This document shows, piece by piece, positions 33,511-50,030 of a stretch of 64,000 bases of DNA. Each line of letters begins with the position of its first letter. The stretch's first letter is position 1. The stretch lies in the NCBI GenBank assembly GCA_021299375.1, contig JAJTGR010000011.1, positions 43,490 to 107,489 on the forward strand. The letters run 5' to 3'. The stretch is from Gemmatimonadota bacterium. GTDB lineage: Bacteria; Gemmatimonadota; Gemmatimonadetes; Gemmatimonadales; Gemmatimonadaceae. The notes beneath the pieces are model-generated. The model was not told where the DNA came from. It saw only the letters and a list, made by a program, of their open reading frames with translations, and did not search any database. The position numbers were made by a program, and so were the translations under genes.

Positions 33511-33511
33511 C

Positions 33512-34051: not shown

Positions 34052-34058
34052 TCGTTGC

Positions 34059-35692: not shown

Positions 35693-36092
35693 GCCAGCCG
35701 AGGGCGACGAGTCACCGCAGTGGCTCGTCGTGGAGGTGGGCCGGGTGCGTTACGGCATTCCGGTCGAGCAGGTGCGCGGCGTGGTGCGGCCGGGGGGGCT
35801 CCGCCCGGTCCCAGGGGCGCCCGTGCAGCAGGCCGGCATCGTGAACGTGCGAGGCGCAATCGTCACCGTCCTGGACCTGGCCGCCATGCAGTCGGGCACC
35901 CGTGCCGTGGCCCCGGGGTCGATCGTCCTGTTGCAGAACGGGGCCCGGCCGATCGGGCTGACCGTCGATGCGGTGCACGATGTCCGCGTGGTGGAGACCG
36001 GGGAGGCTGGTCGCGCCGGCGCCATTGTCCCGCTGGACGCCGTGGCACTGTGCGCCCGGCATCTGCACTCAGGCGAAGCGAGGGAACGGTGA
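35676..36092 (+). CDS. cheW: CheW coupling protein
   Basis: YGIPVEQV..VPGAP...GIVNVRGAIVTVLDL..IGLTVDAV; start overlaps the rluA end. Confidence 0.85.
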   Translation: MPLPAEPAEGDESPQWLVVEVGRVRYGIPVEQVRGVVRPGGLRPVPGAPVQQAGIVNVRGAIVTVLDLAAMQSGTRAVAPGSIVLLQNGARPIGLTVDAVHDVRVVETGEAGRAGAIVPLDAVALCARHLHSGEARER

Positions 36093-36454
36093 GCCGGACA
36101 GTACTCATCTGCGACGATGCGCTCTTCATGCGCACCATGGTCGGGGATATCCTCACTCAGGCGGGATTCGAGGTCGTGGGCGAGGCGGAAACCGGGGTGC
36201 AGGCGGTGGAGAAGTACAAGCATCTCCGCCCCGATCTCGTGACCATGGACATCGTGATGCCCGATCTGGGCGGGATCGACGCCGTGCGCGAAATCACGAA
36301 GCATGATCCGTCGGCACGCATCCTCATGTGCAGTGCCATGGGGCAGCAGGCGCTGGTGGTCGAAGCCATTCAGGCCGGGGCCAAGGACTTCGTCGTCAAG
36401 CCGTTCCAGCCCAGTCGCGTGCTGGAGGCGGTGACCCGCGTGCTCGCCGCCTGA
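36089..36454 (+). CDS. cheY: CheY response regulator (Bacillus/Thermotoga-like)
   Basis: ICDDALFMR, TMDIVMP (phospho-Asp), MCSAMGQQ, VVKPF; GTGA overlap. Confidence 0.93.
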   Translation: MSRTVLICDDALFMRTMVGDILTQAGFEVVGEAETGVQAVEKYKHLRPDLVTMDIVMPDLGGIDAVREITKHDPSARILMCSAMGQQALVVEAIQAGAKDFVVKPFQPSRVLEAVTRVLAA

Positions 36455-36479
36455 CGGCGGACCAGCCGGGATCGCCGAC

Positions 36480-38429
36480 ATGGACGCGGCGCGCTACGCC
36501 GCGCTTTTTCGCACCGAGTCCGCCGAACAGCTCGCGGAGATCGACGCGGCGCTGCTGTTGCTTGAGCACGCGCCGCAGCGGACCGACGCGCCAGCGCTCA
36601 TCGCCACGCTGTTTCGTGGCATGCACACCATCAAGGGCATGGCGGCGGCGATGGGCTACGGCGCCGTGGAGCGGCTGGCTCACGCCCTCGAGTCGCGCTG
36701 TGAAGCGCTGCGCGCCGGCAGCGAGCCGCTCGATTCCGGTGTGCTGACGCTGCTCTTCGAAGCGACCGGGGCGATGCGGGAGGCGATCGCCGATGCCACG
36801 GCCGGTGAGCCGCGCGGGGAAACGGAGGCCCACAGCGCCGCCGTTACCGAGCGGCTCGTCCGCCACGGCCCTTCGCGGACGCCGGTACGTGCCGCCGCGG
36901 AGGCCCCGCTGCCGAGCGTCGGCGCGGTGCGACCCACCTCGGCCGCGGACGACTCACGGGACAGACCGGAGGTCGACACCGCGAATGTGCGCCATGTGGA
37001 CGTGCGGCTTACCGACGACTGCCCGCTCAAAGGGGTGCGCGCCATGCTGGTGCTGGCCCGGCTGCAGCAGGTGGGCCTCGTGCGCGGCGCGCATCCGGCG
37101 CAGGAGACGTGGCAGGATGACGGCTTCGACGGCCGCTTTCGCGTCACCCTCGTCACCGGGGCGACGGATGACGCCATCACGGAGGCGGCTCGGAGTGCCG
37201 GCGACGTCGAGCGCGTGCAGGTACGCCGGCCGGCGGTGGCCGCGGCCCGGTCCGCCGCCGTCGCGACGGTAACGGCGCCCGCGGCGCACACCGTCCGCAT
37301 CGACGCCGGCCGACTTGACACGCTGCTGGATCTCGTCGGCGAGCTGGTCATCACCCGCGACCGCCTGCTGCGCGCACTCGAAGCCACCGAGCATCCCGAT
37401 CGCGAGGTACTGCGCGCCGCCCGAGACTCGGCGCGGCTGGTGGGGGCGCTGGAGGAGGAAGTCCTGCAGGCACGGCTGCTGCCGGTGGGACAGGTCTTCG
37501 ACCGGTTTCCGCGTCTGGTGCGCGATCTGGCGCACGATCTCGGCAAGACCGTGCGTCTGGTGACGGAAGGGCGGGAGATCGAGCTCGATCGTTCCGTCCT
37601 CGACGCCATTGGTGAACTGCTGCTGCACCTGCTGCGGAACGCCATCGACCACGGCATCGAGGCGCCCGCCGTACGGCGGGCCGCCGGGAAACCGGCGGAG
37701 GGAGAACTGGTGCTGCGGGCCGCGCGCGAACGGACGTCGGTGGTCGTGCAGGTGCAGGACGATGGCCGCGGTATCGACCGCACCGAGGTCTTGCGCCGTG
37801 CACGGGACCTGGGACTGGTGCCTGCCGATGTCCAGGCGCTCGACGACGACCGCCTGCGTGCCGTGATCGCCCACCCCGGCTTCTCGACGGCGCGCGAAGT
37901 CACGCGGGTCTCGGGACGCGGTGTCGGCGTCGACGTGGTGAACACGCGGGTGCGGGCCCTCGGCGGCCAGATGGAGCTGGAGTCGATCGACGGGGTTGGC
38001 ACCGTCGTCACGCTGCGCCTGCCCATCACGCTCGCCATCACTCGGGCCCTGCTGGTGGAGGTCGCCGGCACGATCTTCGCCCTCCCGGCCGCGCATGTCG
38101 ATGAGGCGGTGGCGTATCACGCCACCCAACGGACGCGTCACGGCGGCGGTCCGGCCGTCACCATCCGCGACGAGATCCTTCCGCTGGTGGCCCTTGGCGA
38201 ACGGTTCGCCCTGTGCGAGTCGTCGTCGGAGGCGCGCGAGCAGCATCTGGCGATCGTCGAGAGTGGGGGGAAGCGGGCCGCCTTGCTCGTCGACGCGCTG
38301 GTGGCGCAGCAGGACATCGTCGTCAAGCCGCTCGACCTCGTCAGGGGGGCTGCGCCGTGGTTCAGCGGTGCCACCGTGCTCGGTGACGGCAGCCCCGCGC
38401 TCATCGTCGATGTCGGGAGTGTGGTATGA
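36480..38429 (+). CDS. cheA: CheA histidine kinase (Hpt, P2, dimerisation, HATPase, CheW-like domains)
   Basis: FRGMHTIKGMA, VRIDAGRLDTLLDLVGELVI, LRNAIDHGIE, DDGRGID, PGFST, SGRGVG.DVV, QQDIVVKPL. Confidence 0.95.
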   Translation: MDAARYAALFRTESAEQLAEIDAALLLLEHAPQRTDAPALIATLFRGMHTIKGMAAAMGYGAVERLAHALESRCEALRAGSEPLDSGVLTLLFEATGAMREAIADATAGEPRGETEAHSAAVTERLVRHGPSRTPVRAAAEAPLPSVGAVRPTSAADDSRDRPEVDTANVRHVDVRLTDDCPLKGVRAMLVLARLQQVGLVRGAHPAQETWQDDGFDGRFRVTLVTGATDDAITEAARSAGDVERVQVRRPAVAAARSAAVATVTAPAAHTVRIDAGRLDTLLDLVGELVITRDRLLRALEATEHPDREVLRAARDSARLVGALEEEVLQARLLPVGQVFDRFPRLVRDLAHDLGKTVRLVTEGREIELDRSVLDAIGELLLHLLRNAIDHGIEAPAVRRAAGKPAEGELVLRAARERTSVVVQVQDDGRGIDRTEVLRRARDLGLVPADVQALDDDRLRAVIAHPGFSTAREVTRVSGRGVGVDVVNTRVRALGGQMELESIDGVGTVVTLRLPITLAITRALLVEVAGTIFALPAAHVDEAVAYHATQRTRHGGGPAVTIRDEILPLVALGERFALCESSSEAREQHLAIVESGGKRAALLVDALVAQQDIVVKPLDLVRGAAPWFSGATVLGDGSPALIVDVGSVV

Positions 38430-39115
38430 ACGCAGACCCCCAGAACACCACCACCGTGCCGGCCTCAGATGGGCGTCCGGCGCGCGGAGCACCGATGGCA
38501 ACGATCCGGTCACTCAAGGCCATCCAACTCGACGCGCTACGCGAGACGGCGAACATCGGGGCCGGGCATGCGGCCACGGCGCTCTCGCAGCTGACCGGGA
38601 GCCCCATCCTCATCAAGGTGCCCGCCATCAGTGTTGCAAGCATCGAGGCGCTGCCCGTGCGCTTTGCGCCCGACGAGGAGCCGGTCGCAGCCGTGCTCCT
38701 GCAGATGCTCGGGGACCTCACCGGCCGCACCGTGCTGGTGTTCCCCAAACCCACCGTGCTGCGCCTTGCGGAGCTCATGCTGCGCCGGCCGGTCGGCTCC
38801 TCGGTGGCCTTCAGTGAGCTCGAGACCTCGGCGATCAAGGAACTGGGCAACATCCTGAGTGGCGCCTACATGAACGCGCTCAGCGACTTCCTCGGCATGC
38901 TGCTGCTGCCCTCCCCGCCCACGCTCGTGATCGACATGTCGACGGCGGTGCTGACGAGTGCGTTCGGCGAGTTTGCCGCCGACCCCGACGCCGTGCTGTG
39001 CGTGGAGAGCGAGTTCCTGATCACCGAGATGAACCAGACGCTGCGGGGCTTCTTCCTGATGTTGCCGGACCCGGCGTCGCTGCAGGTGATGCTGCGCGCG
39101 CTGCGCCTCGCCTGA
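38426..39115 (+). CDS. cheC: CheC phosphatase
   Basis: Two ExxN sites: DALRETANIGAGHAATALS and SAIKELGNIL. Confidence 0.92.
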   Translation: MNADPQNTTTVPASDGRPARGAPMATIRSLKAIQLDALRETANIGAGHAATALSQLTGSPILIKVPAISVASIEALPVRFAPDEEPVAAVLLQMLGDLTGRTVLVFPKPTVLRLAELMLRRPVGSSVAFSELETSAIKELGNILSGAYMNALSDFLGMLLLPSPPTLVIDMSTAVLTSAFGEFAADPDAVLCVESEFLITEMNQTLRGFFLMLPDPASLQVMLRALRLA

Positions 39116-39130
39116 CGCGGCGGCTCGTCG

Positions 39131-41818
39131 ATGTCGTCCGCCGTCCCCGCCGGGCGCGACCTCGATCTGCTGCGTGCCATGCTCGACCGCGTGGACCAGC
39201 AGGATCCGGGGGCGTTCAACAACCTCGGAGTGCTCTACCACGCGCGGGGACTCCACCGGGAAGCGGTGGACGCGTTCCTGCGCGCCCTGGCGCTCGATCC
39301 GCGTATGCGGCCGGCGGCCCGCAACCTCGAAGTGGCAGCCGCCCGGCCCGGGGCCTGCGACGACCGGCTGGCCCGCCTGGATGCGCGCATCGCCACCGAC
39401 CCCGACGATCGGGCGGCACAGCGGGAGCGCGCCCAGCTCCTGCGCCTCATTGGCCGGACTGACGACGCCGTACGCCTGTTCGATGCGCTCATCGCGGAAG
39501 ATCCCGATGATGGCGATGCCCTGTTCGAACGCGGCTGCATCGAACAGCGCGCCGGGGACTTGCGCCGGGCGCAGCGCTGGTTCGAGCGTGCGGTGAACGC
39601 GGGAGCGCGCGGAGGCGCGCGGCTGCATCTCGCGGAGGTGCTCTTTCAGCGCGGCAAGAACGAACAGGCGCTCGACGTCCTGGATCGCCTGCTGGCCCAC
39701 GCCCCCGACGAAGCGGAAGCGCACCTGCTGCGCGGTTTTGTCCTGGGCGAGATGGGGCGCCACGAAGCCGCGATGATCGCGGCGCGGCGGGCGAAAGCCC
39801 TCAATCCGGCGCTGCAGACGCTGCACGCTGACCTGTCCATCGATCCCACCGCCGGGGTGGCTGGCGGTCTCGCCGGCGCCACCGCGCTGGCCGGACCGTC
39901 CGGGCCCGTCATGGCGCCGTCGTCGGAGGCGGCCTTGGCGCGCTACGGTCTCGGTCTGGCGTTCCGGCAGCGCGGGTACTTCCGCGAGGCGCGGGCGGAG
40001 TTCGCGCGTGCGCTGGCGCACGGCGAAGACGCGAGGCTGGTGCGCCACGCGCTCGCTGAACTCGACCTGCTTGACGGTGCCTCGTCGGCGGCGCGGGAGC
40101 GCTACGAGACGCTGCTGGCCGAGGAGGAGACCGCGCGATGGTGGAACGAGCATGGCGTCGCGCTGCACCAGGCCGGCGAGGTGGACGGCGCGGCGGACAG
40201 CTACCGTCGCGCCCTGCGGCTCGATCCCCGCCACGCCCTCGCGTACAACAATCTCGGGGTAGCCCTCGCTGATCGTCGGGATTCGAGCGTTGCGCGCGAC
40301 GCCTTGGCGCGCGCCGGCGAACTCGATCCGTCGCTGCTGCTGGCGCGCCTGAACCTCGGGCGCTGGCACGCGCAGCGCGGGGAGGCACTCACGGCGCTCG
40401 ACCTGTTGCGTGAGCTCGTGGCGTTCCATCCGCGCGAGGCCGACGCGTGGCATACCCTCGGCGTGGTGCTCGCGCAGTTGCGTCGTCCCGAGGAGGCCCG
40501 TGACGCCCTCGTGCAGGCCATCGAGCAGCAGCCCAAACATGCCGATGCGCGCTTCGCTCTGGCGCAGGTGCTGGAGACATTGGGCGACCCTGACGGGGCG
40601 ACCCGCGAGATGCAGCAGGCGCTGGGCCTGGCGAGCGTGCGGCGTGACCTCCATCTGGTCGTGGGAATCGACCTGCAGCGCGAATGTCCGGAGGCCGTGG
40701 GATCGATCGACCTGCTGCGGCTCGGTGGGGGCACCCCGCTTGCCGGTGTGGCACTCGATGCGGACACGGTCGGGGCGCTGCTGCCGGAGCGCATGCTGGC
40801 CTCCGCGCTTGCGGTCGAGACGGAACCGGCGACGTGGGTCGGCGAGCGCGCGCGACGCGCCTGTGACCTCGCGGATGGCTTCGGTGCACGGACGCTGCAT
40901 GGGGAGGCGGTGGAACGCTATCGGGCTGCGCGCACACTGCTGGAGGCCCACGACGATGCCGCCGCGCTGGCGGTATGGCGCCGGGCTGCGATTGGCGAAG
41001 CACGGGCACTGTGTCTGCTGCAGCAGGCACCGGAAGCGCGTCCCCTGCTGAAGCGACTGGGCGCTGTTTCGCCAACGGACCCTGAGGTGCTGGTGTTGTA
41101 TGCGGCGGCCACGGCCGACGATGAATCGGTGGGAAGTGACGAGGCACGGCGTGAGCTGGTGCGCACGGCGCTCCTGCGGCTGCTCTCGCAGCCGGTGTCG
41201 AGCGCGGCCCTGCTGCACTACGCGGGAGACATCGCGTCCCGCTTCCCCGACCCCGGGGTGGCTCTCGCGTGTTACCGGCGGGCGCTGGCCTGCGATCCCG
41301 CGCGACCGACGCCGCGGGTGGCCATTGCGCGGCTGTTGCGCACTCGGGGGGACCTGCTCGCGGCCCGTCTCGAGCTGGTGGCGGCGCTGGCGACGGCGCC
41401 GCACTGGCGCGAGGCGCTGCTGGAGCTGGCGCGCGTTCATCGGACCGCCTCGCGCCTGCCCGACGCGCGCGTGGTGCTCGTACGCCACCTCACGCGGGTG
41501 CCAACCGACCTCGAGGCCCTCGACCTGTTGGCCGAAGTCCTGATCGCCGAAGAGCGGCAGGATGACGCCCGTGTGGTCGTGGCGCGCCTGCTGCGCCACG
41601 ATCCCGACCGGCCGGCGGCACTGTGGTTCGACAGCCTGCTGCTCACGGAGCAGTCTCGGTGGCGTGAGGCGCACGCACGGTGGACTCGACTCGCGACGGT
41701 GCCGGACGGTGGCGCGTGGGCCGAACGGGCCCAGGCCGCCCTCACGCGGGCAGCCCAGCTGGCCGGCGGGCGGTCAACCCCTGCATGCGGCACGTCCGCC
41801 ATCGAACGGGTGGCGTGA
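39131..41818 (+). CDS. Large cytoplasmic TPR repeat protein (895 aa)
   Basis: Many TPR-type units (AFNNLGVLY..A...F.RAL.LDP; AYNNLGVAL; AWHTLG); no signal peptide seen. Confidence 0.85.
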   Translation: MSSAVPAGRDLDLLRAMLDRVDQQDPGAFNNLGVLYHARGLHREAVDAFLRALALDPRMRPAARNLEVAAARPGACDDRLARLDARIATDPDDRAAQRERAQLLRLIGRTDDAVRLFDALIAEDPDDGDALFERGCIEQRAGDLRRAQRWFERAVNAGARGGARLHLAEVLFQRGKNEQALDVLDRLLAHAPDEAEAHLLRGFVLGEMGRHEAAMIAARRAKALNPALQTLHADLSIDPTAGVAGGLAGATALAGPSGPVMAPSSEAALARYGLGLAFRQRGYFREARAEFARALAHGEDARLVRHALAELDLLDGASSAARERYETLLAEEETARWWNEHGVALHQAGEVDGAADSYRRALRLDPRHALAYNNLGVALADRRDSSVARDALARAGELDPSLLLARLNLGRWHAQRGEALTALDLLRELVAFHPREADAWHTLGVVLAQLRRPEEARDALVQAIEQQPKHADARFALAQVLETLGDPDGATREMQQALGLASVRRDLHLVVGIDLQRECPEAVGSIDLLRLGGGTPLAGVALDADTVGALLPERMLASALAVETEPATWVGERARRACDLADGFGARTLHGEAVERYRAARTLLEAHDDAAALAVWRRAAIGEARALCLLQQAPEARPLLKRLGAVSPTDPEVLVLYAAATADDESVGSDEARRELVRTALLRLLSQPVSSAALLHYAGDIASRFPDPGVALACYRRALACDPARPTPRVAIARLLRTRGDLLAARLELVAALATAPHWREALLELARVHRTASRLPDARVVLVRHLTRVPTDLEALDLLAEVLIAEERQDDARVVVARLLRHDPDRPAALWFDSLLLTEQSRWREAHARWTRLATVPDGGAWAERAQAALTRAAQLAGGRSTPACGTSAIERVA

Positions 41819-41819
41819 C

Positions 41820-42836
41820 ATGAGCATCGAGGGTCGGCTGCGTGACCTGAGCCTCATCGAGGTGCTGCAACTGCTGGCGCTCGGGCGGAAGACGGGGACA
41901 CTGCACTGCCATGCACCGCTGCAGGGCCGGTACGGGCGGCTGGTGTTCGATCAGGGCGCGATCCTTGATGCCGCGGTGACGGCATCGCCGGACGTGGCCT
42001 CAGGCCCGTGTCCCAACCGTCGCGCGGGCGACACCAAGGCGGTCGAGGATGCCGTGCTCGACGTGCTGCTCTGGCGTGACGGCACCTTCCGGTTCGCCGC
42101 CGGGGAGCCGACCGCGCCGACCACGGGCGTTCGTCTTGCAGTCGACCCGATTCTCATGGAGGGAGCGCTGCGCGCCGAGGGCTGGCGGCGCATCGAGGCG
42201 CGGGTGCCGCACGCGCGGGTCATTCCGACCTTCGTGGACATCGAGCCGCAGCAGCTGCCGCTGTTGCGCCTGACGCCACCGCAGTGGGAAATTCTGACCC
42301 GCGTCGATGGCCAGCGGGACCTCATGGCGCTTGCCGAGGCGATGCAGCGGGAGCTGACGGAGGTGGCGGAACTGGTGCACGACCTGATCGGCGCCGGGCT
42401 GCTGACGCTGCGCGAAGCGCAAGCGCCGCCGCGCCGAAATCCCACCCCGCCGGCCGGGCCGGCGTTCGTGCCCCAGACTGAACCGTCAACCGGACCCGTC
42501 GTGATGGTGACGCCGGCACCCGCCGATGACGAGGACGACGCAGAGGACGACGTCCACGAGGACTCGCTCTTCGACCCCATCGCCGTCGGCGCCGCGGTTG
42601 CGCCCGCCCCCGTTGAACCGTCCTTGCCTCGAGAGCAGGACGGGGCGGAGGCGCCGGCACTGCATGGGCCCACGTTGTGCCGGCACGGTGACGCACTCGC
42701 CCGCCGGGGTGACTTCCTGGGCGCCCTTGCGTACTGGAATGCCGCCTTGCGGGCGCCGGTGCCCGCAGCCGACGCGGAGCGCATCCGCGAGGTTGCGGCC
42801 CTCGCCGCGCGCCTGCACGCGCTGCTGCATCCGTAG
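41820..42836 (+). CDS. DUF4388 (PATAN-related) domain protein with HTH-like middle and acidic linker
   Basis: MSIEGRLRDLSLIEVLQLL...KTGTL..G.ILDA..LLW.DGTFRF; then WEILTRVDG....LAE; DDEDDAEDD. Confidence 0.8.
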   Translation: MSIEGRLRDLSLIEVLQLLALGRKTGTLHCHAPLQGRYGRLVFDQGAILDAAVTASPDVASGPCPNRRAGDTKAVEDAVLDVLLWRDGTFRFAAGEPTAPTTGVRLAVDPILMEGALRAEGWRRIEARVPHARVIPTFVDIEPQQLPLLRLTPPQWEILTRVDGQRDLMALAEAMQRELTEVAELVHDLIGAGLLTLREAQAPPRRNPTPPAGPAFVPQTEPSTGPVVMVTPAPADDEDDAEDDVHEDSLFDPIAVGAAVAPAPVEPSLPREQDGAEAPALHGPTLCRHGDALARRGDFLGALAYWNAALRAPVPAADAERIREVAALAARLHALLHP

Positions 42837-42906
42837 CGGCGCGCCTTCGAAATAGCAGGACACACCGGCGCAGTGGTCGGTGTGCGGCGAGGAGAGGAGC
42901 GGGCGT

Positions 42907-43599
42907 ATGCCCATTGTCGATCACGCCACGCGGCTGATCACCTGCAAGCTGGTCTACTACGGTCCGGGCCGGTCGGGAAAGACCACCAATCTGACCTACC
43001 TGCATTCGGCGCTGCCGAGCGGGCAGGTGGGCTCGCTCACGTCGCTGGCCACGCGTCGTGACCGCACGCTCTTCTTCGACTACCTGCCGGTGGACCTTGG
43101 CAGGGTGGGGGCCTATCAGGTCCGCTTTCAGATCTACACGGTGCCGGGGCAGCCGTACTACAAGTCCATCCGCCAGCTCGTGCTGCACGGCGCCGATGGC
43201 GTGGCGTTCGTGGCCGACAGCGAGCGGCACCGCTGGGACGACAACCTGGAGAGCCTGCAGGACATGCACGCCAACCTCGCCGAACACGGCGTCGACGCGC
43301 GCGACCTGCCCATCGTCATGCAGTACAACAAGCAGGACCTGCCGCCGTCCCTGGCGGCCAGCGTTGCCGAGCTGTCGGTGGCGCTGAACTTCCGCGGGGT
43401 GCCCGAATTTGCGGCCGATGCACTCACCGGGGCGGGCGTGTTCGACACCTTGCGGAGCCTCGGGGTGCGGGTGATGCGGCGACTGGGCGCCGACGAGGGC
43501 ACCGCGAGCGGTCGTCGTGCCGAGCGGGCGCTGCGCACACGGCTGAGTACGCCGGTGCTCGCCGGTGACGACCACGAACTGCCTGAGGTGGCCGCGTGA
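42907..43599 (+). CDS. mglA: MglA-like small GTPase
   Basis: KLVYYGPGRSGKTTNL, DRTLFFDY, YTVPGQ, GADGVAFVADS, QYNKQDL, GVFDTL. Confidence 0.88.
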   Translation: MPIVDHATRLITCKLVYYGPGRSGKTTNLTYLHSALPSGQVGSLTSLATRRDRTLFFDYLPVDLGRVGAYQVRFQIYTVPGQPYYKSIRQLVLHGADGVAFVADSERHRWDDNLESLQDMHANLAEHGVDARDLPIVMQYNKQDLPPSLAASVAELSVALNFRGVPEFAADALTGAGVFDTLRSLGVRVMRRLGADEGTASGRRAERALRTRLSTPVLAGDDHELPEVAA

Positions 43600-45332
43600 C
43601 ACCTGAGCAGCCGGTCGATCGTGCCCTACGTTTCGAAACGTTCGTGGTGGGCTCGTCGAACAGGCTCGCCACTTCGGCCGCCCGTGCTGTCGCCGAGGCG
43701 CCCGCGCAGTCGTACAACCCGCTGTTCGTGTACGGCGCCTCGGGGTGCGGCAAGACCCATCTGGTGGCCGCGATCGCCAACCGCGCCTCGGAGGTGCATC
43801 CCGCGTTGCGCGTGCGCTTCTCGTCCGGCGAGGAGGTTGCCGACCACCTGCATCGCGTCATTGCCAGCGGCCAACCGCAGCTGTTTCTCTCCGACTACCA
43901 GCCGGTCGACCTGCTCATCCTCGATGATGTGCAGTTCCTCACCGGCCAGCGCGAGACGCAGAGCGAGCTCTTGCGGTTGCTCAACGCGCTGTTGCAGGGC
44001 GGCCAGCAGCTCGTGCTCACCAGTGACCGACAGCCGTCGGAGATTGCCGACGTCGACCAGCGCCTCCTGTCGCGCCTCGCCGGGGGCCTGGTCGTCGATG
44101 TCGGAGCGCCGGACTTCGAGATGCGCCTCGCCATCCTGCGCAACGTGTCGCAGGCGCGCACCGTGACCTTCGCCGATGGGGTGCTCGAGGCCGTGGCCCG
44201 CCTGCCGTTCGCCAACGTGCGCGAGCTCAAGGGGGCGCTCAACAAGCTCACCGCATACCAGCAACTCGAGGGGATGCCCATCTCCGCTGGCGATGTGCGG
44301 GCGGTGCTGGGTGAGGGGGGGGCATCAGCGCTGCCCGAGCGCATCGAGGCGATCATCCCGGCCGGCACCGACTACGACGGCTTTCTGGCCGATGTGCTGC
44401 AGGAGGTCGAATTGCGCGTGGAGCCGTGGCGCGTACGGCTCGGCGAAGCCATTGCCCGGTGGAAGCCCGACGGCTGGAGCGTAGCGGTGCTCGAGCGGGC
44501 CATGGCCCTGCCCATGGCGCCGGACGTGGAGGGGTTGCTGCAGGCCTATGCCGGGGCCGTGGCCCATCTCCAGGGCCTCGAGGCCCAGGCGGCAACGATC
44601 GATCCGGCGCTGCGCGGGCATGCGGCGTTTCGCGACGTGGAGGCCATTCCGGCGGCCCAGCAGCTGGTGCAGCAGGCCATGGCCTCGGCGCTCCCGCTCC
44701 CGGCGCCGTCGCCGGCATTCACGCGCGCCTCGCTCGACGCGGGGCCGGAACACCAGTTGGTGCTCCGAGCCATCGATGCCGTGATCGACGAACCGGGGCA
44801 GCGCTACAACCCACTGCTGCTGCACGGGCCGAGTGGTAGCGGCAAGACGCACAGTGCCCACGCCATCGGCAACGCCATGCGCGCGCGCTGGCCCGACCGG
44901 ATCGTGGCGTGCCTCTCCGCCGCCGTCTTTGTGGAGGAGCTGATCGCCGCGATGCAGGAGGGCGGCACGGAACGGTGGCGGGGGCGCTATCGCCGCGCCG
45001 ATGTGTTCATCCTCGACGATATTCAGCTGCTCGAGGGCAAGGAGCGCACCCAGGAGGAGCTGTTTCACCTGTTCAATCACCTCGTGGGGCGCGGCAGCCA
45101 GGTCGTGCTCACCAGCGACCGCGCGCCTCGCACGCTGCTGGGGCTTGCCGACCGCCTGCGTTCGCGCTTCGAGGGAGGGCTGGTGGCTGCCTTGCCGGCG
45201 CGGGAGCGTCCGCGGCTCGAACAACTCATCGCCCGCGCTCCGGGCGAGCGTGACCACTTCTTCGAAGATCGCGAGAAGACGATCTGGGCGTGGCCCGACC
45301 TCGGTGGCCGGCTGATCGAGGAGTACCGATGA
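43596..45332 (+). CDS. Protein with two DnaA/Hda-type AAA+ modules and no DNA-binding domain IV
   Basis: Module 1: YNPLFVYGASGCGKTHL, LLILDDVQ, TSDRQP, RLLSRLAGG, NVRELKGAL. Module 2: YNPLLLHGPSGSGKTH, FILDDIQ, TSDRAP, RLRSRFEGG. Confidence 0.88.
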   Translation: MTPEQPVDRALRFETFVVGSSNRLATSAARAVAEAPAQSYNPLFVYGASGCGKTHLVAAIANRASEVHPALRVRFSSGEEVADHLHRVIASGQPQLFLSDYQPVDLLILDDVQFLTGQRETQSELLRLLNALLQGGQQLVLTSDRQPSEIADVDQRLLSRLAGGLVVDVGAPDFEMRLAILRNVSQARTVTFADGVLEAVARLPFANVRELKGALNKLTAYQQLEGMPISAGDVRAVLGEGGASALPERIEAIIPAGTDYDGFLADVLQEVELRVEPWRVRLGEAIARWKPDGWSVAVLERAMALPMAPDVEGLLQAYAGAVAHLQGLEAQAATIDPALRGHAAFRDVEAIPAAQQLVQQAMASALPLPAPSPAFTRASLDAGPEHQLVLRAIDAVIDEPGQRYNPLLLHGPSGSGKTHSAHAIGNAMRARWPDRIVACLSAAVFVEELIAAMQEGGTERWRGRYRRADVFILDDIQLLEGKERTQEELFHLFNHLVGRGSQVVLTSDRAPRTLLGLADRLRSRFEGGLVAALPARERPRLEQLIARAPGERDHFFEDREKTIWAWPDLGGRLIEEYR

Positions 45333-45345
45333 TCGGACCACGCTG

Positions 45346-47037
45346 ATGGCCATTCGCGGCAACCTGAGTGAAGCCAATCTCGCCGACGTGCTGCAACTGC
45401 TCGCGCTGGGCCAGAAGACCGGCTGCTTGAGCATGGCGCGCGAGGGCAGTTTTGGCAGCATCCACTTCGCCGATGGGCGCGTCGTGCACGCCGGCCTCGT
45501 CAACCGGCGCGACCGGCTCGGTGACCGGCTCGTGCGCCTTGGCGTGATCGACGCCGACGAGCTGGCTCGCCTGGCCGCCGAGGTGGCGCCGCAGGACGAG
45601 CGGGAACTCGCCCAGACGCTGCTCCGGTCGGGGCGCGTGGACCGCGACGTGCTGCTCACCGAGTACCGCGTGCACGTGGAGGAGGCTGTCTATCATCTCC
45701 TCTCGTGGACGCATGGCACCTTCACGTTCGAGCCCGATGACGAGGCGGTCCTCGAACCGCCGTTGCTCTCGGTGAGCGCGGACTCGCTGCTGCTGGAGGG
45801 GGCGCGCCGTGTCGACGAGTGGACGCTCATCGCCAAGAAGATCCCCAGTCTCGACCTTATCTTCGAGCTGGACGGACCGCGCCTCACCCAGCGCGAGACG
45901 CCGCTCAGCCCCGAGCAGGAGCGCCTCCTCCCATTGCTCGACGGGCTGCAGGACGTGCAGGCCATCATCGAGCGCTCGGGCCTCGGGGAGTTCGACGTGG
46001 GCAAGGCGTTGTACGGTCTGCTCACCGCCGGCTACGTGCAGCGCGTGGGGCGCAGTGCGGCGCGCCATCAACCGCCGCCGGAAAGCCGCGTGGCTGAGCA
46101 TCGCAACCTGGGCGTGGCCTTCTACAGGACGGGGTTGCTGGAGGAGGCGCAGCGCGAATTCCGGCGTGTGCTGGAGCTGCGCGACGCCGACGGCGTCGCC
46201 CGCTTTCACCTCGGGCTGGTGCAGGCGCGGCGCGGTGAGTGGCAGGCCGCCACGGACACCTTTCGCCGGGCCGCCAGCGAGCCGGACGCGCCGGTGGCGG
46301 TGTACCACAACCTTGCCTTCGCGCTCGAGCAGTGCGGTGACCTCGACGGTGCGCGCCAGGCGCTGGCAGACGCGCAGGCTCGCGCCGGCTCGACGCCCGA
46401 TCCGCGCATCGCGCTGTCCCGCGCGTTCCTGCACCTGCAGGCCGGTGCGATGCCGGAGGCTGACGCCGCCCTCGCCGAGGCGCGGGCGCATTGGGGCGCC
46501 CGGCAGCCGTCGGCGGCGTGGTTCCATGCTGCCGGCCTGTCGGCCGCACTGGCCGGGGACGCCGTCCGTGCCGCCGCGGTCCTCGAGGAAGGCCTCGCCG
46601 TCCATCCGCACGCCGTGGCGCTGCACAACAATCTCGCCGTGGTGCAGGAGCGATGTGGGAGCTACGAGCTGGCTGCCCGTACCCTCGAGCACGCGTTGCT
46701 CGCCGACGCCAGCTGTGCGCACCTGCACAAGAACCTCGGCGATTACCTCTACCGCGCGCAGCGTTACGACGAGGCGTTCGACGCCTTCGTTCGGGTGAGC
46801 CGGCTGGCGCCGGCACACGGCCCCGACGTCCATCTCAAGCGTGGCAACATCCATTACCGGCGGGGGGAGCTCGAGGAGGCGCGGCGCGCGTGGCAGGAGG
46901 CCCTGTCGCTTGATCCGGGCAACCGCATCGTGCAGGCGAACCTGTCGGCGCTGCCGCCGGCCCCCTTCCCACCGCTCTCGGCGACGACGCCGAGCGATGG
47001 CACCGTGGCCGTCTTCGCGGTGGCCTCGGAGACGTGA
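45346..47037 (+). CDS. DUF4388 domain + TPR repeat protein
   Basis: MAIRGNLSEANLADVLQLL...KTGCL..GRVVHA..LLSWTHGTFTF; C-terminal TPRs (HRNLGVAFY, YHNLAFA, LHNNLAV, LHKNLGDY). Confidence 0.85.
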   Translation: MAIRGNLSEANLADVLQLLALGQKTGCLSMAREGSFGSIHFADGRVVHAGLVNRRDRLGDRLVRLGVIDADELARLAAEVAPQDERELAQTLLRSGRVDRDVLLTEYRVHVEEAVYHLLSWTHGTFTFEPDDEAVLEPPLLSVSADSLLLEGARRVDEWTLIAKKIPSLDLIFELDGPRLTQRETPLSPEQERLLPLLDGLQDVQAIIERSGLGEFDVGKALYGLLTAGYVQRVGRSAARHQPPPESRVAEHRNLGVAFYRTGLLEEAQREFRRVLELRDADGVARFHLGLVQARRGEWQAATDTFRRAASEPDAPVAVYHNLAFALEQCGDLDGARQALADAQARAGSTPDPRIALSRAFLHLQAGAMPEADAALAEARAHWGARQPSAAWFHAAGLSAALAGDAVRAAAVLEEGLAVHPHAVALHNNLAVVQERCGSYELAARTLEHALLADASCAHLHKNLGDYLYRAQRYDEAFDAFVRVSRLAPAHGPDVHLKRGNIHYRRGELEEARRAWQEALSLDPGNRIVQANLSALPPAPFPPLSATTPSDGTVAVFAVASET

Positions 47038-47507
47038 CGCAGATCGTCGTGGGCATCTCCGAGCTCGCCGTGGCCGCCGGACAGGCGTCTCTCGTCACCC
47101 TTGGGCTGGGCTCCTGCGTGGCGATTGCGCTCCACGTCGCCGACCAGCAGGTAGGCGGCCTGGCGCACGTGCTGCTGCCACACGCGCTGCACACCGACAC
47201 GCCACCAGGCAAGGTGCCCGCCCTGGCGGTGCCGGCCATGGTCGCCCGCATGCGCGCATTGGGTGCGTCGGGGCGCATCGAGGCTCGGCTGGTGGGCGGG
47301 GCGTCGATGTTCGCGGCGCTGCTGCCAGTCGGCAGCGAAGGGCTGGGCGTCCGCAACGTGGTGGCGGCACGCACGGCCTGCCACGCGGCCGACGTCCCGG
47401 TCGTGGGGGAGCTCACCGGCGGTGAGACGGGACGCTCGGTGTTCTTTTGCGTGCAGTCCGGACGCCTGCAGGTGCGCACTGTGTGGGGTGACGATGTCGT
47501 CCTCTGA
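47034..47507 (+). CDS. cheD: CheD receptor glutamine deamidase
   Basis: TLGLGSCVAI (catalytic Cys), GLAHVLLP (His), LVGGASMF, GVRN, GG..GRSV. Confidence 0.85.
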   Translation: MTQIVVGISELAVAAGQASLVTLGLGSCVAIALHVADQQVGGLAHVLLPHALHTDTPPGKVPALAVPAMVARMRALGASGRIEARLVGGASMFAALLPVGSEGLGVRNVVAARTACHAADVPVVGELTGGETGRSVFFCVQSGRLQVRTVWGDDVVL

Positions 47508-48636
47508 CTCCGCCACACCGACGCGAGATCGGCGGCGGGTGCTCGTCGTCGACGACAGTGCCTTCATGCGCCGCCTCGTGAGCGATGTGGTACAGGAGAG
47601 CGGCGAGTTCGAGGTGGTGGGTACGGCCCGCGACGGGCACGATGCGCTCCGTCAGGTGGCGGCGCTCGATCCCGACCTCGTCACCCTGGACGTGGACATG
47701 CCCGGACTCGACGGGTTGGCGGCGCTCGAGGCCATCATGCGCACGCGTCCACGGCCGGTCGTGATGCTCAGCGCGGGCGGAAGCGACGGCGGCGTGGACG
47801 CGACGCTGCGCGCCCTCGAGCGCGGGGCCGTCGACTTCGTGCGCAAACCGTCAGGGGCCATCAGTCTCGACCTGGATGCGGTGCGTGATCAGCTGGTACA
47901 GGCGCTGCGGGCGGCTGCCACCGTGCATCTGTCGCACCCTACGGAGCGCCCTCGGGCTCCGGTCGCGTCGCGCGGCCCGGTGGTCATGGAGTCGGGTGCC
48001 CCGCTGATCGGGGGGCGCCATACACCCCAGCCCCCTGCGGCGGTGGTGTGCATTGCCGCCTCCACCGGTGGACCGGCCGCGCTGGCCCGTGTGGTACCCC
48101 TGCTGCCGGCGTGGTCGGACGTGGCAGTGCTCATCGTGCAGCACATGCCTCCGGGGTTCACGGCCAGCTTTGCGCGGCGGCTCGATGGGCAATCCCGCCT
48201 TCGGGTGGCCGAAGCCGTGCATGGCGAGCCGCTGCGAGCCGGGCATGCCTACGTGGCGCCGGGCGGGTTGCATCTGCTGGTGCAGGGCTCGGCGCAGGCC
48301 CCGCGGATTGCGCTCAGCGAGGAGGCGCCGCTTTGGGGGGTGCGGCCCGCCGCCGATCTCCTCTTCCGGTCGGTCGCGGCGCTATATGGCCCGCGCGCGC
48401 TCGGCGTGGTGATGACGGGAATGGGCTGCGACGGGGCTGAGGGACTGATGGCCGTGCGTACCGCCGGTGGCGGCGCCCTCGTTCAGGACGTCGCGTCATC
48501 GGTCATCCCGGGTATGCCGCAAGCGGCCGTGCGGCATGCCGGCGTCGATGCGGAAGTACCGCTCGAGGAACTGGCCGGTGCCATGGCGGCGCAGCTGGAA
48601 GCACGGCGCGCTGCCGGTTGGTGTGCATCCGCCTGA
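47494..48636 (+). CDS. cheB: CheB methylesterase with receiver domain
   Basis: VLVVDDSAFMR, TLDVDMP; catalytic ASTGG, VQHMP, TGMGCDG. Confidence 0.93.
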   Translation: MSSSDSATPTRDRRRVLVVDDSAFMRRLVSDVVQESGEFEVVGTARDGHDALRQVAALDPDLVTLDVDMPGLDGLAALEAIMRTRPRPVVMLSAGGSDGGVDATLRALERGAVDFVRKPSGAISLDLDAVRDQLVQALRAAATVHLSHPTERPRAPVASRGPVVMESGAPLIGGRHTPQPPAAVVCIAASTGGPAALARVVPLLPAWSDVAVLIVQHMPPGFTASFARRLDGQSRLRVAEAVHGEPLRAGHAYVAPGGLHLLVQGSAQAPRIALSEEAPLWGVRPAADLLFRSVAALYGPRALGVVMTGMGCDGAEGLMAVRTAGGGALVQDVASSVIPGMPQAAVRHAGVDAEVPLEELAGAMAAQLEARRAAGWCASA

Positions 48637-48655
48637 CGCGCCCGGAGCACGCCGC

Positions 48656-49120
48656 ATGACCAGCCCATTTCGATCGCTGGCGGGACCGGCCTCCCGCCGC
48701 CGCGCGCGGTCGGTGGTGGAGCGCTCCACCTTCGTGATTGTCGAGCTGCGGGGCGAGCGCTTTGCCCTGCCGGTCGAGCTCGTCGAACGCGTCGTGCGCA
48801 TGCCGGCAGGCTTGCGGCACGTGCGCGTGGCGGATCAGGACCTGGCGCTGATCGAAACCGGTTCGCTGCTGGGCCTCGCACCGGCCGCCGGCAAGGCGGC
48901 GCCGACCCGCACCCTGATCGTGCGGGACCGATCGCACTGGTGGGCGCTGGAGGTCGACGCCGTGATCGAGGTCTGTGCCGTCGAGACGGCGACGATCACG
49001 CCGTGTCCGGCAGACGCGTCGGGCACCCGCCGCGGGGCGCGCGTCGCTACGTTTGAACGGCCTGGCCAGACCATCGTGGTGCTCGATCTTCTTCGCCTCC
49101 TTCCGGATGTTGCGTCGTGA
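48656..49120 (+). CDS. Divergent CheW-like protein
   Basis: FVIVELRGERFALPVELVERV..WALEVDAVIEV..IVVLDL; lacks the G.xNxRG motif. Confidence 0.7.
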   Translation: MTSPFRSLAGPASRRRARSVVERSTFVIVELRGERFALPVELVERVVRMPAGLRHVRVADQDLALIETGSLLGLAPAAGKAAPTRTLIVRDRSHWWALEVDAVIEVCAVETATITPCPADASGTRRGARVATFERPGQTIVVLDLLRLLPDVAS

Positions 49121-50016
49121 CCGTCCCGGTCTCTCCGTCTGATCCTGCCGGTTCCTCGCTTGCCGCGCGCCTGGCGCGGCTGCAGGCGGTGCTCGCCGCA
49201 GCCGGTACGGACGCCGCGGAGTGGCTCCCGCCCGAGCGCCGTGCCCAGCTCAAGCAGGATATCATCGCGCTGTTTCGCGATGCCGAAGTCGCGCTGGCCG
49301 AGGCGCAGGCGGCCAAGGACGGGGCGAAGCGGCTGGCCGAGCAGTGGAAGCAGCTCAGTGCCGGCGGTGGGGAGCCGACGAAGCCCGCGTCGGCGTCTGG
49401 GCCGTCGCGGCTCGATCACCTCGGGGCGTCAACCTACCTCGAAAAGGGGTGGTCACTGATTTCCGTGGAGGACGCGGTCGGGGCCGAAGCGGCCCTGCGC
49501 CGGGCTCTGGAGCTGGTGCCCGGGCACCTCGAAGGCGAAGCGCTGCTCGGCTGGGCGCAGATGCTACGTGAGCAATTCGACGAGGCCCGCACGACCATCG
49601 AGGGCATTCTGGCACGAGACCCCAGTCATGCCCTCGCCCGCACCAATCTCGGGTACATCGCCCTGCGCGGCGGCCACCACGGCGAGGCCATCGAGCAGCT
49701 CACACAGGCGATTGCTGCGGGGACTGACCGCAAGGCCACGTTATACGCGCATCTCTACCTCGGGATGGTCTATCGCGAGCGCGAGATGTTCGATGACGCG
49801 GAGCAGTACTTCCGCAAGGCGCTGGCGCTCGGACCCAACTTGCTGCAAGCGTGGTACGAACTCGGGTTCACATTCTGGCGCAGCGGCCGAGGGGCCGAGG
49901 CGATGACGGCGTGGAAAACCGGCGCCGAGGCCAACAAGTTCAGTCCATGGGGCAAACGGTGCGGGGCCGTGGTGACCGCGGTGGAGCAGGGAGGCGAGCC
50001 GCCGGGCGACGCGTAG
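49117..50016 (+). CDS. N-terminal coiled coil + TPR repeat protein
   Basis: GTGA overlap; heptad segment QLKQDIIALFRDAE..AKRLAEQW; TPRs (ARTNLGYI, AHLYLGMVY, AWYELG). Confidence 0.82.
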   Translation: MTVPVSPSDPAGSSLAARLARLQAVLAAAGTDAAEWLPPERRAQLKQDIIALFRDAEVALAEAQAAKDGAKRLAEQWKQLSAGGGEPTKPASASGPSRLDHLGASTYLEKGWSLISVEDAVGAEAALRRALELVPGHLEGEALLGWAQMLREQFDEARTTIEGILARDPSHALARTNLGYIALRGGHHGEAIEQLTQAIAAGTDRKATLYAHLYLGMVYREREMFDDAEQYFRKALALGPNLLQAWYELGFTFWRSGRGAEAMTAWKTGAEANKFSPWGKRCGAVVTAVEQGGEPPGDA

Positions 50017-50030
50017 TCGGCGGTCGCCCC

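What the first reader, a model, noticed from the sequence alone, without database searches (positions are those of the whole stretch)
42907..43599. MglA-like GTPase without an adjacent MglB/roadblock GAP
Seen: intact G motifs including the intrinsic Arg (DRTLFFD) and catalytic Gln (TVPGQ). The flanking genes are DUF4388 and the DnaA-like ATPase, and no roadblock-sized ORF lies in the cluster. It has its own SD (GAGGAG) after a hairpin at about 42863-42887, and a roughly 35-aa C-terminal tail. Known: M. xanthus-type MglA is normally encoded next to its GAP, mglB. Inference: its regulator is encoded elsewhere, or a neighbouring DUF4388, TPR or AAA+ protein substitutes.
Basis: partly seen in the sequence, partly recalled or inferred. 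Interest (0 to 1): 0.62.

Follow-up and report, generated by a model that had tools for sequence, protein, structure and literature searches.

The report
MglA paralogue that lost its MglB
This gene is a real, intact second copy of the MglA polarity GTPase inside a chemotaxis-like operon. It lacks an adjacent MglB partner only because the genus Gemmatimonas deleted three Roadblock genes, one of them an MglB paralogue, that sit right in front of the same gene in related genera.

Summary
Window 42907-43599(+) encodes a 230-aa Group-1 MglA GTPase, called MglA2 here, with all catalytic motifs. Neither the window nor its contig holds a Roadblock/LC7 gene.

This case is already catalogued. Table S2 of Wuichet & Sogaard-Andersen 2015 lists G. 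aurantiaca GAU_1409 as 'PATAN>MglA>-PATAN>' (229 aa), beside a canonical 'MglB>MglA>' pair. This genome also has that canonical mglBA operon, on another contig.

- In 22 of 24 loci fetched from other Gemmatimonadales genera and neighbouring orders, the orthologous MglA2 is directly preceded by three Roadblock genes. The nearest one is an MglB paralogue.
- In the window and 28 further loci that carry the Gemmatimonas-type MglA2, that roughly 2-kb trio is absent and a 70-nt spacer with a stem-loop remains.
- Gemmatimonas MglA2 sits on a very long stem branch. The stem changes are concentrated in the N-terminal strand, switch I and the interswitch, which includes the face that binds MglB in solved MglA structures.
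- Most of these proteins carry a variable C-terminal tail, and the gene has since been under strong purifying selection.

So the orphan state is a secondary loss. Who now stimulates GTP hydrolysis is unresolved; the housekeeping MglB is the only MglB-type protein left. The scan has reported the Roadblock-containing form of this operon several times on other DNA. Interest is moderate to low.

The parts
42907..43599 (+). mglA2: 230-aa Group-1 MglA-family small GTPase, the finding itself
   Evidence: Translation. PDB MglA 5ymx E 3.4e-60. 53% identical to the genome's canonical MglA. dN/dS 0.06-0.15 within the genus.
42961..42984 (+). P-loop GPGRSGKT (aa 19-26). Arg22 lies at the position of Ras Gly13 and M. 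xanthus MglA Leu22.
   Evidence: GPGRSGKT in all 42 MglA2 sequences and in 51 of 52 MglA2 loci (one reads GPGRAGKT), with or without Roadblock genes. The position equivalence comes from PMC3000849.
43060..43080 (+). G2 / beta2 DRTLFFD (aa 52-58): intrinsic Arg53, Mg-binding Thr54, and Phe56/Phe57 of the MglB-binding strand
   Evidence: Roles of the residues come from PMC4316618 and PMC6785124.
43138..43152 (+). G3 TVPGQ (aa 78-82) with catalytic Gln82
   Evidence: This is the Group-1 signature per PMC4316618.
43327..43338 (+). G4 NKQD (aa 141-144)
43489..43596 (+). C-terminal tail (aa 195-230), variable in length, with a semi-conserved GA(E/D)(D/E)GT..G.RA..ALRTP start. Seen in most Gemmatimonas-type orthologues, which lack the Roadblock genes.
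   Evidence: Tails listed. MglA2 lengths are 200-271 aa without Roadblock genes and 198-213 aa (one of 232) with them. The AF2 model was too poor to place the tail.
42861..42884 (+). Stem-loop in the 70-nt PATAN1-mglA2 spacer, at the place where relatives carry the three Roadblock genes
   Evidence: Fold z = -1.75. No terminator call. Stem-loops with other sequences recur in orthologues.
42889..42899 (+). Shine-Dalgarno-like GAGGAGAGGAG
   Evidence: Read from the sequence.
41820..42836 (+). PATAN1: DUF4388/PATAN-domain protein, 338 aa
   Evidence: Pfam PF14332 E 1.9e-19. One of only two PATAN genes in the genome.
43596..45332 (+). Tandem DnaA-type AAA+ protein, 578 aa. Its GTG start overlaps the mglA2 stop (GTGA).
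   Evidence: Pfam Bac_DnaA matched in two stretches, E 1.4e-96. Syntenic in every locus that reaches that far except L094.
45346..47037 (+). PATAN-TPR protein, 563 aa
   Evidence: Pfam DUF4388 E 2.8e-32 plus TPR.
35598..41818 (+). Upstream part of the operon: CheW (35598-36092), CheY (about 36089-36454), CheA (36480-38429), CheC/X (38426-39115), 895-aa TPR protein (39131-41818)
   Evidence: Pfam. Synteny in 8 of 8 loci from three families.
47034..51233 (+). Downstream part of the operon: CheD (47034-47507), CheB (about 47494-48636), second CheW (ends 49120), TPR protein (49117-50016), MA-type peptidase (ends 51233)
   Evidence: Pfam, NCBIfam.

Best explanation
The gene encodes MglA2, a catalytically intact Group-1 MglA-type small GTPase. 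It is a fixed component of a Gemmatimonadota chemosensory-polarity operon:

CheW-CheY-CheA-CheC - TPR - PATAN - [RobA-RobB-RobC] - MglA2 - tandem DnaA-type AAA+ - PATAN/TPR - CheD-CheB-CheW.

Shown:
- In most Gemmatimonadales and neighbouring orders, three Roadblock/LC7 genes lie directly upstream of MglA2. The nearest, RobC, is an MglB paralogue.
- In the genus Gemmatimonas, which includes this genome, that roughly 2-kb trio is absent, so MglA2 appears as an 'orphan'.
- On the Gemmatimonas stem MglA2 changed unusually fast. The changes are concentrated in the N-terminal strand, the insert/switch I stretch and the interswitch, which includes the face that contacts MglB in solved MglA-MglB complexes.
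- Most Gemmatimonas-type orthologues carry a variable C-terminal tail, which the fetched Roadblock-bearing orthologues lack.
- The protein has since been held by strong purifying selection with Arg53, Thr54 and Gln82 intact.

Inferred:
- MglA2 still cycles between GTP and GDP.
- It is the switch or output node through which this MCP-less Che pathway, together with the PATAN and TPR proteins, sets the position or activity of a polar machine. Type IV pili are the most likely target.
- The ancestral GAP was RobC. In Gemmatimonas the GAP role has either passed to the housekeeping MglB or to an operon neighbour, or the GTPase now relies on slow intrinsic hydrolysis. This step is open.
For: Identity:
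- PDB MglA E 3.4e-60.
- Group-1 motifs present.

The genome holds two MglA copies:
- MglA1 lies in an mglBA operon on C78.
- MglA1 groups with M. xanthus MglA (support 99) and MglA2 forms a separate clade (support 99).

Conservation:
- The operon is syntenic in 8 of 8 loci from three families.
- MglA2 was found in most Gemmatimonadales genomes sampled and in three other families of the class.

Roadblock trio:
- Pfam Robl_LC7 matches three ORFs between PATAN1 and MglA2 in L025.
- RobC's best PDB match is M. xanthus MglB, E 3e-9.
- HMMs find all three genes in 22 of 24 loci that carry Roadblock genes, and none in the window plus 28 other Gemmatimonas-type loci.
- No relocated copy exists anywhere in the genome.

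Burst of change:
- The stem branch is 1.19 substitutions per site, against 0.03-0.4 for typical branches.
- MglA2 core identity is 62% between Gemmatimonas and other genera of its own family. Those genera are 76% identical to other families.
- MglA1 shows no such drop: 80% against 82%.
- 15 of 41 conserved sites changed in beta0, the insert/switch I stretch and the interswitch, against 9 of 83 elsewhere (Fisher p = 0.0013).

Function retained: dN/dS 0.06-0.15.

Context for a pilus target:
- The genome's only two PATAN genes flank mglA2.
- PATAN domains bind PilB and PilC in Synechocystis.
- Adjacent PilB-like and PilT-like ATPase genes are present.
- Two other CheA clusters exist, one on the contig that carries FliM.

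Literature: the G. aurantiaca entry with the same layout is in PMC4316618 Table S2.
Against: - There are no biochemical or genetic data for any member of this clade.
- The link to type IV pili rests on context and analogy only.
- The interface-enrichment test concerns a single branch, and I chose the regions after reading the MglA-MglB structure papers.
- Phe56, Phe57 and Leu64 of the MglB-binding strand are kept, so MglB binding is not excluded.
- Two other lineages that lost the trio (G121, G141) show no comparable divergence. Loss therefore does not by itself force the burst.
- The AF2 model was unusable.
Confidence: 0.72

Rival explanations
1. Shared GAP. The housekeeping MglB of the mglBA operon on contig C78 now serves both MglA1 and MglA2. 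The cluster copy became redundant and was deleted.
For: - Canonical MglB is present and strongly MglB-like, including the acidic C-terminal helix (6izw E 9.5e-39).
- It is the only hit of the RobC profile in the genome (E 5e-21).
- MglA2 keeps Arg53, Gln82, Phe56, Phe57 and Leu64, and a basic residue at the position of Lys181.
Against: - The stem substitutions (F59Y, I67V, S68G, G69A, F70Y, T72V, V83P) move away from the residues shared by MglA1 and M. xanthus MglA, not toward them.
- Lys185 of the helix-binding pocket is lost.
- M. xanthus SofG, also Group 1 with the Arg, is not stimulated by MglB (PMC4316618).
- Canonical MglB shows no marked change in Gemmatimonas.
Confidence: 0.3
2. Neighbour substitution. 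A PATAN, TPR or tandem DnaA-type AAA+ protein of the operon has taken over GAP and/or GEF control of MglA2 in Gemmatimonas.
For: - The mglA2 stop overlaps the start of the AAA+ gene.
- Both PATAN genes of the genome flank mglA2.
- TPR proteins are known MglA partners: SgmX in M. xanthus and Bd2492 in Bdellovibrio (my own knowledge; the SgmX context appears in PMC11580455).
Against: - These neighbours are equally present where the Roadblock trio is retained, so they are not specific to the orphan state.
- No GAP activity is known for any of these folds toward MglA.
Confidence: 0.15
3. GAP-independent switch. After the loss, Gemmatimonas MglA2 works with intrinsic (slow or self-stimulated) hydrolysis, possibly helped by the new C-terminal tail.
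For: - The burst of change falls in the region that includes the MglB-binding face.
- The tail is common in the Gemmatimonas-type lineage and was not seen in the fetched Roadblock-bearing orthologues.
- Orphan MglA proteins with no known GAP exist: SofG and Bdellovibrio MglA.
Against: - The tail is absent or very short in several Gemmatimonas-type orthologues (200-205 aa) and is poorly conserved.
- P-loop Arg22 cannot explain independence, because it is also invariant in the orthologues that keep Roadblock genes.
Confidence: 0.2
4. Decaying remnant. With its partners gone, mglA2 is on its way to becoming a pseudogene and the long branch reflects relaxed selection.
For: A long stem branch. A degenerate relative that has lost Thr54 and Gln82 exists in metagenomes (P0140).
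Against: - dN/dS is 0.06-0.15 across ten pairwise comparisons within the genus.
- All G motifs are invariant in 26 orthologues.
- The frame is intact and coupled to the next gene in every genome examined.
Confidence: 0.03

Closest known systems
Gemmatimonas aurantiaca T-27 GAU_1409 neighbourhood ('PATAN>MglA>-PATAN>', MglA of 229 aa), catalogued as an uncoupled Group-1 MglA in Wuichet & Sogaard-Andersen 2015 (PMC4316618, Table S2)
   Same: Same genus, same length class, same gene order (PATAN, MglA, one gene, PATAN), and the same companion 'MglB>MglA>' pair with a 225-aa MglA elsewhere in the genome.
   Different: The paper gives only a table row. It does not mention the Che genes, the tandem DnaA-type ATPase, or the fact that relatives carry three Roadblock genes at this spot.
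M. xanthus MglA/MglB polarity module controlled by the Frz chemosensory system
   Same: A Group-1 MglA with intrinsic Arg and Gln. An MglB-type Roadblock partner is present ancestrally (RobC). It is linked to a CheA/CheW/CheY pathway.
   Different: Here the GTPase sits inside the che operon, which is not the case in M. xanthus. The operon has no MCP or CheR and adds PATAN, TPR and tandem DnaA-AAA+ genes. In this genus the MglB paralogue is deleted. MglA2 is a clade separate from the M. xanthus type, and the genome's MglA1 is the true counterpart.
Orphan Group-1 MglA proteins: M. xanthus SofG and Bdellovibrio bacteriovorus MglA
   Same: No MglB gene nearby and functionally important. SofG keeps the intrinsic Arg yet is not stimulated by MglB. 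Both act on type IV pili.
   Different: MglA2 has no N-terminal extension and only a short variable tail. Gly21 is intact (from memory, Bdellovibrio MglA carries a substitution there). Its orphan state can be traced to a datable deletion of a cognate MglB paralogue.
Cyanobacterial Tax/Pix chemosensory systems with PATAN-REC (PatA-type) regulators
   Same: A Che-type pathway whose output uses PATAN domains. These bind PilB1 and PilC and set the direction of pilus-driven movement.
   Different: Here the PATAN domains are fused to TPR or helix-turn-helix-like regions, not to a receiver domain, and a small GTPase is part of the module.

Membership tests
MglA family, Group 1 (Wuichet & Sogaard-Andersen 2015) | P-loop GxxxxGK[ST] | tested here: met
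   GPGRSGKT at aa 19-26, invariant in orthologues.
MglA family, Group 1 (Wuichet & Sogaard-Andersen 2015) | Intrinsic arginine next to the conserved G2 threonine | tested here: met
   Arg53-Thr54 in DRTLFFD. The criterion is quoted.
MglA family, Group 1 (Wuichet & Sogaard-Andersen 2015) | G3 motif TVPGQ (Thr in place of the usual Asp, plus the catalytic Gln) | tested here: met
   TVPGQ at aa 78-82. The criterion is quoted.
MglA family, Group 1 (Wuichet & Sogaard-Andersen 2015) | Full-length sequence similarity to experimentally characterised MglA | tested here: met
   5ymx E 3.4e-60 and 3t12 E 1.1e-53, covering residues 2-194.
MglA family, Group 1 (Wuichet & Sogaard-Andersen 2015) | GTP binding, and hydrolysis stimulated by an MglB dimer | not testable with these tools
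   Needs purified proteins.
Coupled MglA-MglB system (an MglB gene within four genes) | A Roadblock/LC7 MglB homologue encoded within four genes of mglA | tested here: not met
   No Robl_LC7 hit on contig C1. No RobA/B/C hit in the window. The feature is met in 22 of 24 loci that carry Roadblock genes, from other genera and families.
Orphan MglA of the SofG type | N- and C-terminal extensions around the GTPase domain | tested here: not met
   The GTPase domain starts at residue 2. There is only a 36-aa variable C-terminal tail.
Frz-like chemosensory control of MglA | A complete Che pathway (MCP, CheW, CheA, CheY-type output, CheR, CheB) acting on the GTPase module | tested here: inconclusive
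   CheW (two copies), CheY, CheA, CheC, CheD and CheB are in the operon. There is no MCP or CheR in it; eight MCP and three CheR genes lie on other contigs. A functional link is not testable here.

The most novel reading that the evidence does not exclude
Gemmatimonas is a natural 'GAP-deletion' experiment. After losing its cognate MglB paralogue and two further Roadblock proteins, MglA2 was remodelled on its MglB-binding face. It is now controlled in a way not known for any MglA. The candidates are the translationally coupled tandem DnaA-type AAA+ ATPase acting as its regulator or recycler, and its own new C-terminal tail. Either would be a first example of an ATPase-governed or self-governed bacterial Ras-like polarity switch.
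Probability: 0.12. Interest if true: 0.7.

Novelty: new member of a known kind. Interest (0 to 1): 0.38.

Why it matters
Orphan MglA GTPases are a recognised but poorly understood class: 59 of 449 family members in the 2015 survey, of which only SofG and Bdellovibrio MglA have been studied.

Here the orphan state can be traced to a specific event, the deletion of an MglB paralogue and two other Roadblock genes in one genus. Close relatives still carry the full set. Gemmatimonas species that carry this operon are in culture: G. phototrophica and G. groenlandica carry the linked DnaA-type ATPase gene, and G. aurantiaca has the catalogued layout.

This gives a matched pair of natural systems for asking how a bacterial Ras-like switch copes with losing its GAP, and which surface residues encode partner specificity. 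It does not change the general picture of MglA biology.

Tried and rejected
1. P-loop Arg22 (the Ras Gly13 position) as the reason for GAP independence. Rejected: GPGRSGKT is equally invariant in orthologues that keep the Roadblock trio, and Arg at this position occurs in 19 of 150 distant representatives.

2. The orphan Roadblock plus receiver-domain pair on contig C6 as the missing partner.
- It is present in 40 of 41 relatives, whatever their MglA2 status.
- Genomes that have the cluster trio carry it as well, so it is not a relocated copy.
- It resembles MglB only weakly.
- It is not excluded, but nothing supports it.

3. Apparent absence of MglA2 in four genomes of the genus. At least two look like contig-end artefacts: the PATAN-TPR gene sits at a contig start in G007, and on a different contig from MglA1 in G001.

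4. The upstream stem-loop as an intrinsic terminator. There is no U-tract and no terminator call.

5. AlphaFold2 on 26 orthologues gave mean pLDDT 47.7. It could not be used to place the tail or Arg22, so no fold search was run.

6. Searches that gave no view beyond the phylum.
- The search for homologous proteins with the DnaA-type protein returned only close Gemmatimonas relatives.
- The listing of cluster members gave no taxonomy for the distant MglA2-like representatives.
- The distribution outside Gemmatimonadota was therefore not established.

7. Canonical MglB co-adaptation. Its identity pattern shows no clear genus-specific acceleration.

Full report
**1. What is there**

Window 42907-43599(+) is an ORF of 230 codons.
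- An ATG start is preceded by GAGGAGAGGAG (42889-42899).
- The TGA stop overlaps the GTG start of the next gene (GTGA at 43596-43599).
- The product carries every motif of a Group-1 MglA GTPase: P-loop GPGRSGKT (aa 19-26), DRTLFFD with the intrinsic Arg53 and Thr54, TVPGQ with Gln82, and NKQD.
- Residues 2-194 align to solved M. xanthus MglA (5ymx, E 3.4e-60) and T. thermophilus MglA (3t12, E 1.1e-53).
- The last 36 residues have no counterpart in those proteins.
- According to Wuichet & Sogaard-Andersen 2015 (PMC4316618), the Arg next to the G2 Thr and the TVPGQ G3 motif define Group 1.

**2. The neighbourhood**

Pfam and NCBIfam give one co-oriented row:

| Gene | Coordinates |
|---|---|
| CheW | 35598-36092 |
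| CheY | to 36454 |
| CheA | 36480-38429 |
| CheC/X | 38426-39115 |
| 895-aa TPR protein | 39131-41818 |
| PATAN/DUF4388 protein | 41820-42836 |
| MglA2 | 42907-43599 |
| protein with two DnaA-type AAA+ modules | 43596-45332 |
| PATAN-TPR protein | 45346-47037 |
| CheD, CheB, second CheW, TPR protein, MA-type peptidase | 47034-51233 |

- No Roadblock/LC7 gene lies on the window's contig. Pfam Robl_LC7 hits only C78, C6 and, weakly, C112.
- The genome (a Gemmatimonas, by the record titles) has exactly two MglA-family genes and exactly two PATAN genes, both flanking mglA2.
- The second MglA, called MglA1 here, is 225 aa and 53% identical to MglA2. It sits directly after a 162-aa MglB on contig C78.
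- That MglB matches M. xanthus MglB at E 9.5e-39, including the acidic C-terminal helix.

**3. Already in the literature**

[quoted passage not shown] This is the same pair of genes with the same layout.
- The paper counts 59 uncoupled ('orphan') MglA proteins among 449.
- It names SofG and Bdellovibrio MglA as the only ones studied.
- I found no paper that deals with MglA function in Gemmatimonas.

**4. The main new result: the orphan state is a deletion**

A tblastn comparison of eight orthologous loci showed the whole operon conserved across three families. It also showed about 2 kb of extra DNA between PATAN1 and MglA2 everywhere except in the genus Gemmatimonas.

In locus L025 that stretch holds three ORFs with Robl_LC7 matches:

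| ORF | Description | Pfam Robl_LC7 score |
|---|---|---|
| RobA | TPR-Roadblock fusion | 23.4 bits |
| RobB | 117-aa Roadblock protein | 34.9 bits |
| RobC | about 150-aa Roadblock protein, immediately upstream of MglA2 | 21.5 bits |

- RobC's best PDB matches are the MglB proteins of M. xanthus (E 3e-9) and T. thermophilus.
- RobC ends in an MglB-like motif, DFEADLNRSLTSLF.

I built profile HMMs for the three proteins and scanned 60 loci.
- All three genes are present, in the same order, in 22 of 24 loci that carry Roadblock genes. These come from other genera of Gemmatimonadaceae, from two further families of the order, and from three families of other orders.
- None is present in the window or in 28 other loci that carry the Gemmatimonas-type MglA2.
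- Scanning every six-frame ORF of the whole genome found no relocated copy. The RobC profile hits only canonical MglB (E 5e-21), the RobB profile hits the C6 Roadblock protein (E 2e-7) and MglB, and RobA hits nothing.
- Three other lineages (G121, G141, and partly G078) also lack the trio. In the MglA2 tree, G121 is sister to a Roadblock-bearing genome (support 97), so losses happened more than once.

**5. What happened to the GTPase**

- In a tree rooted on MglA1 and M. xanthus MglA, the Gemmatimonas MglA2 clade is nested among Roadblock-bearing lineages. Its stem is 1.19 substitutions per site, against 0.03-0.4 for typical branches.
- MglA2 core identity is 62% between Gemmatimonas and other genera of its own family. 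Those genera are 76% identical to other families. MglA1 shows no such drop (80% against 82%).
- Of 124 positions conserved within both groups, 24 differ between them. Fifteen of 41 lie in the N-terminal strand, the insert/switch I stretch or the beta2-interswitch-beta3 region, against 9 of 83 elsewhere (Fisher p = 0.0013; one branch, regions chosen from the literature).
- These regions include the elements that contact the MglB Roadblock core and C-terminal helix in the M. xanthus complex: Phe56, Phe57, Phe59, Leu64, Ile67, Lys181 and Lys185 (PMC6785124).
- The changes F59Y, I67V, S68G, G69A, F70Y, T72V and V83P move away from residues shared by MglA1, M. xanthus MglA and the Roadblock-bearing MglA2 orthologues.
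- Phe56, Phe57 and Leu64 are kept.
- The C-terminal tail is common in the Gemmatimonas-type lineage and varies in length: 200-271 aa, against 198-213 aa (one of 232) in the Roadblock-bearing loci.
- Within the genus the GTPase core has dN/dS 0.06-0.15, and all G motifs are invariant in 26 orthologues. The gene is not decaying.

**6. Deeper placement**

Among 150 representatives from a 1.8-billion-protein library, MglA2 forms its own well-supported clade with a handful of clusters. MglA1 groups with M. xanthus MglA. MglA2 is therefore an old paralogue, not a recent copy of MglA1.

In a sample of 151 Gemmatimonadota genomes at least 90% complete:
- MglA2-type matches occur in most Gemmatimonadales and in three further families of the class.
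- Other families of the class have only one MglA or none.
- The other classes sampled have none.

**7. Likely function (inference)**

- The genome has three CheA genes. One lies on the contig that carries FliM, and another sits beside an MCP and a CheR. The window's MCP-less cluster is therefore probably not the flagellar pathway.
- PATAN domains are the output domains of cyanobacterial chemosensory systems and bind PilB1 and PilC.
- Adjacent PilB-like and PilT-like ATPase genes are present.
- Characterised MglA proteins sort pilus motors.

I therefore read MglA2 as the nucleotide switch through which this Che pathway, with its PATAN and TPR partners, positions or activates a polar machine, most likely type IV pili. 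In the ancestral design RobC is the GAP.

For Gemmatimonas I weigh the alternatives as follows:

| Who controls hydrolysis in Gemmatimonas | Weight |
|---|---|
| Housekeeping MglB, shared with MglA1 | about 0.3 |
| GAP-independent | about 0.2 |
| An operon neighbour | about 0.15 |
| Unknown | remainder |

**8. Minor points of the finding**

- The stem-loop at 42861-42884 exists but is only marginally more stable than shuffles (z = -1.75), and it is not terminator-like.
- Stem-loops of different sequence recur at the same place in many orthologues: 28 of 36 fold better than shuffles, though these are related sequences. It may be an intercistronic processing or stability element at the deletion site.
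- P-loop Arg22 corresponds to Ras Gly13 and M. xanthus Leu22. It is a clade-wide trait and unrelated to the loss.

**9. Relation to earlier notes of this scan**

The Roadblock-containing form of the operon has been reported several times on other Gemmatimonadota DNA, and a related block has been reported in Rokubacteria. I found the Roadblock trio before reading those notes, and they agree with it. What is specific to this window is the deletion of the trio and its consequences for MglA2.

**10. Verdict**

- The gene is a member of a known and catalogued class.
- The added value is the evolutionary explanation and a clean experimental contrast.
- Interest is 0.38.

Noticed in passing
L001:646-1323(-) = G000 contig C78, about 69.9-70.5 kb: The canonical MglA1 of Gemmatimonadales (225 aa) carries an insertion of about 30 aa between G4 and G5 (NPGWEVTDPTRMRPLADPFRPGEFLVSQLPTGEWVERVPYFE) that M. 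xanthus and Thermus MglA lack. It is present in all 15 orthologues collected.
   Followed up: partly
L002:1447-2294(+) = G000 contig C6, about 18.6-19.5 kb: An orphan 131-aa Roadblock/LC7 protein is immediately followed by a 144-aa receiver-domain protein. The Roadblock gene was found in 40 of 41 relatives searched. It is only remotely MglB-like and has no GTPase next to it.
   Followed up: partly
Proteins P0127, P0133, P0143 and about 130 more: Most of the nearest non-Gemmatimonadota relatives of MglA2 are 300-700-aa proteins. They have an N-terminal Group-1 MglA domain followed by long Pro/Ala-rich, probably disordered extensions, some ending in predicted membrane helices. Their origin and context are unknown.
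   Followed up: no
Protein P0140: An MglA2-clade relative from metagenomes has lost Thr54 and the TVPGQ Gln (GRTHAFEY, RTMSGE), which suggests a pseudo-GTPase variant. An earlier scan note reports a similar case.
   Followed up: no
Protein P0216: A 354-aa metagenomic gene call reads from MglA2 into the N-terminus of the DnaA-type ATPase. This is probably a frameshift or gene-calling artefact, but it confirms the tight linkage of the two genes elsewhere.
   Followed up: no
window 33302-34637 (+): Two consecutive ORFs both match lipoprotein signal peptidase LspA (TIGR00077, E 7e-24 and 1.5e-27), which looks like a tandem duplication.
   Followed up: no
L094 (G141:C3:454400-460400): In this genome MglA2 has neither the Roadblock trio nor the DnaA-type ATPase beside it, and a PATAN match lies downstream instead. 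This is a rearranged version of the cluster.
   Followed up: no
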